Positions 14,459 through 21,479 of a stretch of DNA of 64,000 nt are shown here, in pieces. The notes below the pieces were generated by a model. That model searched no databases, was not told the DNA's origin, and worked only from the letters and a program-made list of their open reading frames with translations. The stretch comes from Promethearchaeota archaeon (GTDB taxonomy: Archaea; Asgardarchaeota; Lokiarchaeia; Sigyniarchaeales; SOKP01). The DNA lies in assembly GCA_016839555.1 (NCBI GenBank), contig JAEOUA010000009.1:61221-125220 (forward strand), in the 5' to 3' direction. Every line of letters begins with the position of its first letter. The stretch's first letter is position 1. A program made the position numbers and the translations under genes.

Positions 14459-15394
14459 CTAAGGATTGTATATATTTTCTGCTTCTAGATTTGCAAAGTC
14501 CCTTATTATCGTCTCATTACTTTCTAATATCATTTGAAATGCAATATCATAAATTATTTTGGTTTCTTCATCTTCAACAAGAATCTTTTTAATGATGTTT
14601 GCAAATCTGTTATTTATTTTCCACCCTTTAAGATTAAAATCAATATAATCTTCTTTCTTAGGGAAGATTTCTTTAAATATTCGATATCTTTCTTTAATTG
14701 CATTTTGTAAATCAGTTCCTTTAGCATAGGAGGCTATTTTAGAAATAATTTCTTTTCTAATCCTAAATATATTAGAGCCTTCTTCTAAAAGATTCTTTAT
14801 ATCCTTTTCAATTGTCTTTCTAATTTTTTTAGGAATCTGATTTAAAGCATTCAGATATTGTTTTTTTGAACTATAATGAGAAGAAGAAAATTTAATAGAT
14901 TCTTCCTTTAATTTAAATGTTTCTATGAATCGATTTTTCAGTTTATTAAATTCTTCCTTTAATAGTTCTGATAATTCTTTATTTAGATTTTTACCTTCGA
15001 AAAAAATATCCTTAAACTTGTCTATTATTGTTTTTTGAAATAAATTTAAAAATTTTAGATATTCTTTTTTATAAGTAGGATTATTTAGCATTTTATAGTA
15101 GTTCTCGGCAGTTTTCCAAATGAGGGCATCGCATACTCTCTTTTTTAATTGTGTACCTTTAGATAGATCTTTCTTGGTTAATTGAGGAGATTGAAAAGAT
15201 ACTGGTTGATCTGTGGTTAGAGTCTCATTAAGAGAAACAAAATAATTTTTAATATCATTATTTTTTTCAATATAACTACTTTCTCCTGCCATAATTCCTT
15301 TTAAGCGATTTAATTCTTCATATAGTTTTTCTTTTAAATCGTTAATAGTATTTTTATGAGAGAGGTAATCGTTTCTTGTATTTTCTTCTTTCAT
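14459..15394 (-). CDS. Hypothetical helical protein
   Basis: 311-codon ORF with no recognised motif. Confidence 0.6.
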   Translation of the reverse strand: MKEENTRNDYLSHKNTINDLKEKLYEELNRLKGIMAGESSYIEKNNDIKNYFVSLNETLTTDQPVSFQSPQLTKKDLSKGTQLKKRVCDALIWKTAENYYKMLNNPTYKKEYLKFLNLFQKTIIDKFKDIFFEGKNLNKELSELLKEEFNKLKNRFIETFKLKEESIKFSSSHYSSKKQYLNALNQIPKKIRKTIEKDIKNLLEEGSNIFRIRKEIISKIASYAKGTDLQNAIKERYRIFKEIFPKKEDYIDFNLKGWKINNRFANIIKKILVEDEETKIIYDIAFQMILESNETIIRDFANLEAENIYNP

Positions 15395-15507: not shown

Positions 15508-15805
15508 TGTAGCCTAAAGCACTAACGCTTTTTTTTCATTTTTTGGATTTATCCATAAAATCTAAAAAGTTCTCTCGTGTTAGGCATTTTGGGGTAAACA
15601 TAATCATATATCCTGCCTGGGTTGCTGACTCAAAGCTCATCGCATCGGTATCCACCTTTGCTCAATTAAGAGCCCATTTATACAGGATTTTTCATGTTAT
15701 TGATTATTTGATTCAGAATGTATGCAGTTGGTTTGCACTTCATACTCATCTTTTAATCGTATGAGCCCTCGAAACGCAAGTATTCCTTCATCATCAATAC
15801 CCCAA
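15508..15805 (-). ncRNA. Multi-hairpin H/ACA pseudouridylation guide RNA with K-turns and C/D boxes
   Basis: Three stem-pocket-stem-K-turn hairpins, each followed by ACA or AUA at 15, 14 and 16 nt from the pocket top. Pockets are complementary to conserved 23S rRNA sequence. TATA-like box about 25 nt upstream and a T-rich tract directly after the last ACA. Confidence 0.8.
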
Positions 15806-15964
15806 TTAAATTAAGTTAATACAAAGTTAAAAATATTTGTCTCATAATGTAAAATTAACAAGATTATTGATCTTTTTCAACATGAATTAGAAGAAGCACC
15901 TAATTTTACAAAGAGGAATCAATAAATCATATTACAATAATAAATATTACTTTCATAGTTTAAT

Positions 15965-20522: not shown

Positions 20523-20702
20523 GTGAGTAATAAGTATAGAACCATAAGAATTCTTGCGGATTTAGTTGAGTCCATCTTAAAAATTATTGAAAAAAATAAT
20601 GAATTAGGTTATAGAAGTCATTCAGAAAGTATAATATATTGCGCAAGAAGGAGAGTTGAAGACTTTTTTGATTTAGAGAAACCTAAAAACAAAATATCAT
20701 AA
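20523..20702 (+). CDS. Ribbon-helix-helix (CopG/Arc/MetJ-like) protein, copy 1
   Basis: Manual translation from GTG: MSNKYRTIRILADLVESILKIIEKNNELGYRSHSESIIYCARRRVEDFFDLEKPKNKIS. Confidence 0.72.
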   Translation: MSNKYRTIRILADLVESILKIIEKNNELGYRSHSESIIYCARRRVEDFFDLEKPKNKIS

Positions 20703-20947
20703 TTATATTAAATTTAATCTTTAATTTTGAGAATCCTTTTTATTTCTTCAAAGAAAAATCTTTTTTTCAATAAATAGTATTATTATTTTTAAATAAAATA
20801 ATATTAGAATAGAAGTTTTTAAAATTTTTTTATTAATCATTAGAATAATAAAATTAATAAATTTAACAAGTCAAATACGTATTTCTAGCAAATATAATTA
20901 AATTATAACTCATTAACTATTAAAATAAAAGAAATATTACTATTCTT

Positions 20948-21121
20948 ATGGTGAAGAAATATAGAACGGTTAGGATCCCCGATGACCTTGTAAAATCAAT
21001 CTTAAGAATTATTAATGAGTATAACGATTTGGGATATAGATCACACTCAGAATTTATCATTGATTCTGTGAGAAGAAGAGTTGAACAATTATTACATTAT
21101 ACTAAAGGTAATTCTAACTAA
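20948..21121 (+). CDS. Ribbon-helix-helix protein, copy 2
   Basis: MVKKYRTVRIPDDLVKSILRIINEYNDLGYRSHSEFIIDSVRRRVEQLLHYTKGNSN. Confidence 0.82.
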   Translation: MVKKYRTVRIPDDLVKSILRIINEYNDLGYRSHSEFIIDSVRRRVEQLLHYTKGNSN

Positions 21122-21314
21122 TAATAGAAAGGATTTTTCTTTTTTTTTATCATTTTATTGAAATAGAAAAGTGTTTCATGAAGCTTTTTACACTTTTTAA
21201 GATTAATAAAATAAAATAATGTATTTTTTATTAGAGAATTCTCTTTGTATATTAAAAATATTAACTTTTTCTTAAATTATAAAATTGTATATTAAGAATT
21301 ATAGGTGATTAATA

Positions 21315-21479
21315 GTGGTAGAATATCGTACAATAAGAGTTCCAAACGACCTAGTAGAATCAATTTTAAAAATTATTAAAGAGCATAAAGATTTAGGATA
21401 CCGAAGTCATTCAGAATTCATTATTGATTGTGTAAGAAGAAGAGTTGAAAATTTTAGAAACCTGTCAAAAAAAAAGTAA
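21315..21479 (+). CDS. Ribbon-helix-helix protein, copy 3
   Basis: GTG start after an AGGTGA ribosome-binding site: MVEYRTIRVPNDLVESILKIIKEHKDLGYRSHSEFIIDCVRRRVENFRNLSKKK. Confidence 0.82.
   Translation: MVEYRTIRVPNDLVESILKIIKEHKDLGYRSHSEFIIDCVRRRVENFRNLSKKK

What the first reader, a model, noticed from the sequence alone, without database searches (positions are those of the whole stretch)
15609..15688. Guide hairpin 2 is complementary to both strands of the 23S A-loop helix (H92)
Seen in sequence: lower stem CCUG/CAGG, pocket strands AAUGGGC (15678-15672) and GCAACCCA (15625-15618), and a K-turn closed by GCA/UGC with an apical GGU/ACC stem. Predicted target 5'-UGGGUUG[C/U]-U-C-GCCCAUU-3'. 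Established: H92 is a 5-bp stem with a UGUUC-type loop (2552-2556), and yeast Psi2923 (snR10) is at 2554. Inference: Psi at 2555, or 2554 with a one-base register shift.
Basis: partly seen in the sequence, partly recalled or inferred. Interest (0 to 1): 0.75.

Follow-up and report, generated by a model that had tools for sequence, protein, structure and literature searches.

The report
Dual-target A-loop guide hairpin, Asgard
This hairpin is the middle unit of a conserved three-hairpin guide RNA of Asgard archaea that most likely directs pseudouridine formation at 23S rRNA U2554 in the ribosome's A-loop (a site yeast also modifies) and, by a second way of pairing, at U2586; it does not act on position 2555, which is an A in this organism.

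Summary
The hairpin is real: it is motif 2 of a ~300-nt three-hairpin box H/ACA guide RNA (minus strand, ~15803-15508), found in 114/126 genomes of the family and in several other Asgard families. It is a probable diverged orthologue of Pab40/Pf7/Afu4 (HgcG).

The A-loop idea holds, but the details were wrong. The host 23S stem is GGGGC/GCCCA with loop UGUAC, so 2555 is A and cannot be modified. The 3' guide is CAGC (15627-15624), not the strand quoted. U2554 (= yeast Psi2923, snR10) ranks first among the U sites of the genome's own 23S in 24/27 Asgard genomes, and the guide follows H92 changes at several positions.

The same pocket also fits U2586. AACCCAG lies 14 nt from the ANA box, exactly as in Thermococcus motif 2. 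Its ACCCAG core is intact in 29/31 genomes with U2586 and in 0/8 with C2586.

Neither modification nor expression is shown.

The parts
15508..15803 (-). Three-hairpin box H/ACA guide RNA gene (ends inferred from conserved 5' GGG and last ACA)
   Evidence: about 290 nt conserved at 67-79% in family relatives; a relative aligns full length to HgcG
15828..15833 (-). TATA-like box about 30 nt upstream of the 5' GGG
   Evidence: at -29/-30 in 22/30 homologues
15607..15688 (-). Hairpin (motif) 2 with ANA box: the finding
15683..15688 (-). Lower stem 5' strand (pairs with 15615-15610)
   Evidence: all 6 pairs show changes on both sides
15672..15678 (-). 5' guide AAUGGGC: 7 WC pairs with G2557-U2563 (A-loop target); 5 pairs plus one G.A mismatch with G2588-U2593 (second target)
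15629..15671 (-). Upper stem (8 nt to the K-turn GA; base C15670-G15629, U15669-A15630, U15668-G15631), K-turn and apical stem
   Evidence: 29/29, 28/29 and 27/29 paired
15624..15627 (-). 3' guide for U2554: CAGC pairs G2553-G2550; starts 18 nt before the ANA box; extended by CCCA (15621-15618) on G2549-U2546 after a 2-nt bulge
15617..15623 (-). 3' guide for U2586: AACCCAG pairs U2585-C2579; starts 14 nt before the ANA box
15607..15609 (-). ANA box (AUA here, ACA in most relatives)
15600..15707 (-). Helix enclosing hairpin 2 and its box (15707-15701 with 15606-15600)
   Evidence: 96% of cells paired
15719..15778 (-). Hairpin 1 (K-loop) with ACA at 15721-15719; predicted target U2496
   Evidence: best site, -14.0 against next -5.8 kcal/mol
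15713..15794 (-). C/D-type K-turn enclosing hairpin 1 (C-like 15794-15788, D-like 15716-15713); structural, no conserved methylation guide seen
   Evidence: alignment, read by eye; automated tally parsed only about half the sequences
15508..15585 (-). Hairpin 3 (K-turn) with ACA at 15510-15508; predicted target in H69, most likely U1915 (possibly also U1917 or U1921)

Best explanation
Hairpin 2 binds L7Ae at its K-turn and Cbf5-Nop10-Gar1 at its lower stem and ANA box (inferred from the class; the four genes are shown present). Its one pocket pairs with 23S rRNA in two alternative ways. [quoted passage not shown] Mode B: AACCCAG pairs with 2579-2585 at the canonical 14 nt from the box and the 5' guide pairs weakly with 2588-2593, so U2586 becomes pseudouridine. 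In most other Asgard lineages the two modes differ by a one-base slide (15 against 14 nt). In this lineage a short insertion after CA restored pairing to C2551 and pushed mode A to 17-19 nt. Shown: sequence, structure, conservation, complementarity, covariation. Inferred: expression, RNP assembly, both modifications.
For: U2554: top site among 1026 U positions for the host and U2586 second; no shuffle of 300 gave two such sites. Rank 1 in 24/27 Asgard genomes and rank 2 in the other 3. The guide follows H92 changes where 2588-2593 is unchanged: U2560 with guide A (family f8); U2551 with guide A against C2551 with inserted G; A2547 with guide U (f9). Two lineages (genus g9 and a g11 subclade) lost ACCCAG but kept the A-loop elements, moving CAG to 13-16 nt from the box. 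The upper-stem register puts CAG first in the pocket. U2586: ACCC stays fixed at -13 from the box while CAG floats from -15 to -19. Identical AACCCAG+7 nt+ACA occurs in Thermococcus HgcG motif 2. ACCCAG is intact in 29/31 genomes with U2586 and 0/8 with C2586, in four genera, while A-loop pairing persists in all 39. Haloferax sR-h45 SL1 makes the equivalent Psi in vivo with two As pairing the two preceding Us (PMC7075261). cbf5, nop10, gar1 and l7ae are present. Three-base gaps and 17-19 nt spacings can be active (PMC2377435; PMC7075261).
Against: No Psi map for any of these organisms was found. Mode A in the host is 18 nt from the box (16 after the bulge); in P. abyssi 14-15 nt was active and 13 or 17 were seen among inactive pairings, and three extra bases lowered activity in Haloferax. 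Mode B has a weak 5' duplex (-3.8 kcal/mol, invariant G.A mismatch) and leaves 5-6 extra guide bases above the pocket, whereas P. abyssi upper stems never had more than one bulged base. The free hairpin prefers a closed form in which GGC pairs internally (-14.7 against -9.7 kcal/mol), which can also explain some invariant bases. Guide C at 15676 mismatches A2561 in 13/88 copies. Exceptions: G024 and G132 have U2586 but a decayed guide. Genomes are related, and rRNA in MAGs can be misbinned.
Confidence: 0.62

Rival explanations
1. In this lineage the hairpin guides only U2554; ACCC is kept merely to extend the H92 duplex.
For: CCCA also pairs G2549-U2546; two lineages lost ACCCAG; the mode B 5' duplex is weak.
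Against: G at -8 and A at -13 pair only in mode B; the fixed -13 register; decay of ACCCAG tracks U2586C (0/8 against 29/31).
Confidence: 0.15
2. It guides only U2586, like Pf7/Pho40 motif 2 as reassigned by Muller et al.; A-loop complementarity is a relic or a by-product of internal pairing.
For: Canonical 14-nt spacing; orthology; internal GGC/GYC pairing explains several invariant bases; mode A spacing is long in the host.
Against: A-loop pairing is kept in all 8 genomes where 2586 is C and in lineages that lost ACCCAG; the guide covaries with H92 at 2560, 2551 and 2547; 15-nt canonical spacing for U2554 in other Asgard families.
Confidence: 0.13
3. The A-loop pairing is real but non-catalytic: a chaperone-like contact that holds H92 open during large-subunit assembly, while catalysis is at U2586.
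For: 15 of 18 bases of 2546-2563 can pair; spacing to the box is free to vary from 13 to 20 nt.
Against: [quoted passage not shown]
Confidence: 0.06
4. Target is 2555, or the region is a U3-like/C-D RNA, or an antisense protein gene.
For: GGCAGGAU is complementary to the 16S 5' end in the host; a 73-codon ORF lies on the plus strand; C- and D-like boxes exist.
Against: 2555 is A; GGCAGGAU is in 3/88 copies and is a covarying stem strand; the ORF frame is open for 70 codons in only 2/30 homologues and has no Pfam match.
Confidence: 0.02

Closest known systems
Pab40 / Pf7 / Pho40 / Afu4 three-motif H/ACA sRNA (HgcG, Rfam RF00064; PMC2377435)
   Same: Three motifs in the same order; K-loop motif 1 for U2496 (P. 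abyssi 2588); motif 2 with AACCCAG 14 nt from the box for U2586 (2678); motif 3 with GUUA for H69 (2016); a relative aligns over the whole model (E 2.5e-5). Afu4 motif 2 was first proposed to target A. fulgidus 2601 = P. abyssi 2647, which by spacing is E. coli 2555, and was then reassigned to 2586 on rules, not by experiment.
   Different: Far below the Rfam cut-off (25.5 against 77 bits; the host has no hit). The 5' guide is GGGC rather than the Thermococcus GGUC, and there is a CAG element, giving strong A-loop pairing that Thermococcus lacks (rank 5). Extra enclosing helices and a C/D-type K-turn around motif 1. P. abyssi motif 2 acts at 1932 instead.
Haloferax volcanii sR-h45 (PMC7075261)
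   Same: SL1 guides the U2586 equivalent and SL2 guides 1915/1917 with long spacing: same targets and order as hairpins 2 and 3; shown in vivo.
   Different: Two hairpins only; no A-loop target reported; sequence homology not tested here.
Yeast snR10 (Psi2923)
   Same: Same predicted nucleotide (2923 = E. coli 2554, since 2921/2922 = 2552/2553).
   Different: Eukaryotic two-hairpin snoRNA without K-turns, with an added role in pre-rRNA processing; no sequence homology tested, so a shared site does not show a shared ancestor RNA.
Multi-target archaeal pockets (Pab35 and Pab105 motifs, PMC2377435; sR435, PMC11077068)
   Same: One pocket serving several sites by alternative pairing; Pab35.2 shifts its pocket by one pair between targets (PMC4652768 supplement).
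   Different: Different sites; here the two registers are 4 nt apart in the host.

Membership tests
Archaeal box H/ACA guide RNA | Hairpin with lower stem, internal pocket and upper stem | tested here: met
   covarying lower and upper stems
Archaeal box H/ACA guide RNA | K-turn or K-loop at a fixed distance above the pocket | tested here: met
   8 nt from pocket to GA in all 30; C-stem covaries; first G of the sheared pair is often A or U in relatives
Archaeal box H/ACA guide RNA | ANA box directly 3' of the lower stem | tested here: met
   A-N-A in 30/30
Archaeal box H/ACA guide RNA | Bipartite complementarity flanking a target U, 14-15 nt from the box | tested here: met
   met for U2586 (14 nt) in the host and for U2554 (15 nt) in other Asgard families; for U2554 in the host the distance is 18 nt, which is atypical
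Archaeal box H/ACA guide RNA | Cbf5, Nop10, Gar1 and L7Ae in the genome | tested here: met
   all over cut-off
Archaeal box H/ACA guide RNA | Expression, protein binding, guided Psi formation | not testable with these tools
   no RNA run listed; needs bench work
HgcG/Pab40 (RF00064) | Rfam score at or above 77 bits | tested here: not met
   host: no hit; best relative 25.5 bits. Filed as probable diverged orthologue, not as an Rfam member
HgcG/Pab40 (RF00064) | Three motifs aimed at 2496, 2586 and H69 in that order | tested here: met
   (predicted pairings only)
HgcG/Pab40 (RF00064) | Motif 3 pocket canonical for U1915 | tested here: inconclusive
   3' guide GUUA shared; the host 5' guide leaves 4-5 unpaired bases; family f10 covaries for 1915
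Eukaryotic snR10-type snoRNA | Two-hairpin H-box/ACA layout without K-turn | tested here: not met
   three hairpins, each with a K-turn or K-loop; AUAUGA fits ANANNA but its UGA belongs to the enclosing helix
U3-like / box C/D guide | Conserved antisense element to 16S rRNA or next to box D | tested here: not met
   the element is a variable, covarying stem strand present in 3/88 copies

The most novel reading that the evidence does not exclude
Asgard archaea make Psi2554 in the A-loop, a modification I found documented only for eukaryotes, using motif 2 of the ancient Pab40/Afu4-type RNA, whose single pocket serves both U2554 and U2586. The three hairpins would then cover sites (2496, 2554, 2586, 1915) that eukaryotes distribute over separate snoRNAs, making this RNA a candidate model for the guide set of the archaeal ancestor of eukaryotes, and suggesting that the old A-loop assignment for Afu4 motif 2 was nearly right.
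Probability: 0.5. Interest if true: 0.68.

Novelty: new variant of a known kind. Interest (0 to 1): 0.5.

Why it matters
It gives a precise, testable prediction for two pseudouridines in the peptidyl-transferase centre of Asgard ribosomes. One is at the A-loop base that contacts C74 of A-site tRNA (PMC9976906) and is modified through snR10 in yeast. The loss of the second guide element where the target U became C is unusual natural evidence for a dual-specificity pocket. It bears on an unsettled assignment in the literature (Afu4 motif 2: A-loop or 2586). The class and the RNA family are known, so this is a refinement, not a new system.

Tried and rejected
Rfam scans: nothing at gathering level in the window; only chance hits at E up to 10 in the region; the RF00064 search of 61 genomes missed the loci. 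Single-strand folding is not significant. Psi2555 rejected (A in the host). U2552 as target needs a 5-nt gap and ranks lower. U3-like reading and antisense ORF rejected. A 23S 3'-end target for hairpin 3 was not among the top sites. C at guide 15676 as covariation with G2561 is not clean: it matches in f9 but occurs with A2561 in f10 and several f1 genomes, and it always pairs G2592. One search used a malformed (duplicated) rRNA set and wrong hairpin 3 coordinates; it was replaced. Early regex parses picked an ANA two bases too early in some rows; corrected. No RNA holder was listed, which is no evidence either way. The Afu4 sequence and the Tang 2002, Rozhdestvensky 2003 and Hansen 2002 papers could not be obtained. 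Paper searches found no report of Asgard H/ACA RNAs; the library is incomplete. The sigma-70 promoter scan does not apply to archaea.

Full report
Setting. The window is G000:C9:61221-125220, a 3.7-Mb, 30% G+C genome with archaeal rRNAs. The finding lies on the minus strand between a 115-aa helix-hairpin-helix protein gene and a 311-aa ORF without Pfam match.

The structure is real. The lower stem is 6 bp and is followed at once by AUA. Folding of the single sequence is unremarkable (z -0.8), but about 290 nt around it are conserved in most genomes of the family. A model of hairpin 2 finds one copy in 114/126 family genomes and weaker hits in several further Asgard families, which on inspection are the same three-hairpin RNA. 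Stems covary (17 pairs changed on both sides; 88% paired against 26-39% in slid controls). A TATA-like box sits at -29/-30 in 22/30 homologues, and the antisense ORF is not conserved. The genome encodes Cbf5, Nop10, Gar1 and L7Ae.

The 3' part of the host 23S is on contig C12. H92 has stem GGGGC/GCCCA and loop UGUAC. Position 2555 is therefore A, as in most relatives, and cannot become pseudouridine. The 5' guide AAUGGGC pairs perfectly with 2557-2563. The quoted 3' strand fits the real rRNA only with a mismatch and is present in 8/88 copies.

The true A-loop pairing. The best-supported base of the upper stem is C15670-G15629, U15669-A15630, U15668-G15631 (29, 28 and 27 of 29). So the 3' pocket strand begins at CAG, which with the next pyrimidine pairs G2553-G2550 in 30, 30, 29 and 28 of 30 homologues. 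U2554-A2555-C2556 stay unpaired. Against a composite 16S+23S set (host parts completed with relatives) U2554 is the best of 1026 U sites, and 5/300 shuffles do as well. Outside this class the spacing is the canonical 15 nt. The guide tracks H92: U2560 with guide A in f8, U2551 with guide A in f8, f10, f21 and f32, C2551 with an inserted G in the host's class, A2547 with guide U in f9. Mismatches remain in f2, f9, f14 and f32. Where 2555 is U, the rule that the most 5' unpaired U is converted (PMC7075261) also favours 2554.

A second target. AACCCAG (15623-15617) is the exact complement of 2579-2585 and starts 14 nt before the box. ACCC stays at -13 in 28/30 while CAG floats. Thermococcus HgcG motif 2 has the same seven bases at the same distance. 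Muller et al. assign Pf7 and Afu4 motif 2 to P. abyssi 2678, and note that Afu4 motif 2 had first been assigned 31 nt upstream (PMC2377435). Haloferax SL1 makes the equivalent Psi in vivo. The strongest evidence is natural: position 2586 is C in 8 genomes of four genera, and none keeps ACCCAG intact, against 29/31 with U2586 (Fisher p 7e-7, overstated because kin are not independent). All 39 keep the A-loop pairing. Conversely, genus g9 and a g11 subclade deleted ACCCAG and brought CAG to 13-16 nt from the box.

Mechanism. Shown: structure, conservation, two complementarities, covariation for each, presence of the protein genes. Inferred: one pocket, two registers, one pinned to the K-turn (U2554) and one to the ANA box (U2586). 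Each has a weakness in the host. U2554 is 18 nt from the box (16 after a 2-base bulge), outside the 14-15 nt of P. abyssi though within the 17-19 that works in Haloferax. U2586 has a weak 5' duplex and 5-6 spare guide bases above the pocket. I put Psi2554 at about 0.8, Psi2586 at about 0.75 and both at about 0.62.

The neighbours. Hairpin 1 fits U2496 canonically. Hairpin 3 fits H69; family f10 covaries for U1915 and the host leaves 4-5 bases unpaired, like Haloferax SL2. The order 2496, 2586, H69 is that of Pab40, and one relative aligns over the whole HgcG model (E 2.5e-5, 25.5 bits against a cut-off of 77). I file the RNA as an archaeal H/ACA guide and a probable diverged Pab40/Afu4 orthologue, not as an Rfam member.

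Novelty. No paper in the searchable library describes Asgard H/ACA RNAs or an archaeal Psi2554, but key older papers were unavailable. Earlier reports of this scan describe the same RNA in other Asgard genomes, and one names U2554; these are unchecked notes, read after my own analysis, and are not support. What I did not see there is the dual target and the guide decay that follows loss of U2586.

Verdict. Observation partly confirmed, interpretation partly supported; new variant of a known kind; interest 0.5.

Noticed in passing
L031:667 (host 23S, E. coli 2555): A at 2555 in the host and most of its class, also in f9 and f32; U in genus g8 and several other families. PMC9976906 calls UU almost universal outside Thermoproteota and reports that U2555A raises frameshifting and readthrough in E. 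coli.
   Followed up: partly
L044, L050, L054 and five more genomes: Position 2586, next to U2585 of the catalytic centre, is C in 8 family genomes from four genera.
   Followed up: partly
window 15794-15713 and 15707-15600; relatives L002-L030: Each hairpin with its ACA box is nested in an extra helix: a C/D-type K-turn around hairpin 1, a 7-bp helix around hairpin 2, a covarying helix around hairpin 3 (deleted in the host), and 5' GGG can pair with CCC at about 15594. Family f10 lacks these.
   Followed up: partly
L044, L049, L051 (after about 2599), L216 (after about 2566), L043, L051, L067 (H89 region): 23S sequences of several relatives break off or carry inserts at these points (about 28 nt in L216), suggesting rRNA introns in the peptidyl-transferase region.
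   Followed up: no
L031:900-1184: The host 23S 3' domain runs longer than usual after helix 94, consistent with an enlarged expansion segment (known for Loki rRNA, from memory).
   Followed up: no
L002:2987-3086 (+): Weak match to the pyrrolysine insertion element PYLIS_3 (32.2 bits, cut-off 38).
   Followed up: no
window 15676 and 15624 in relatives: All five of the first 30 copies with C at the 15676 position also have C after CAG (three genera), perhaps balancing duplex strength.
   Followed up: partly
L134 (G145), L128, L130: Hairpin 2 copies whose 5' guide mismatches both targets; possibly decaying or retargeted.
   Followed up: no
window 14459-15394 (-): 311-aa lysine-rich ORF just downstream of the RNA, no Pfam match.
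   Followed up: no
window 20523-21479: Three short paralogous ORFs of 54-59 aa in an AT-rich stretch.
   Followed up: no
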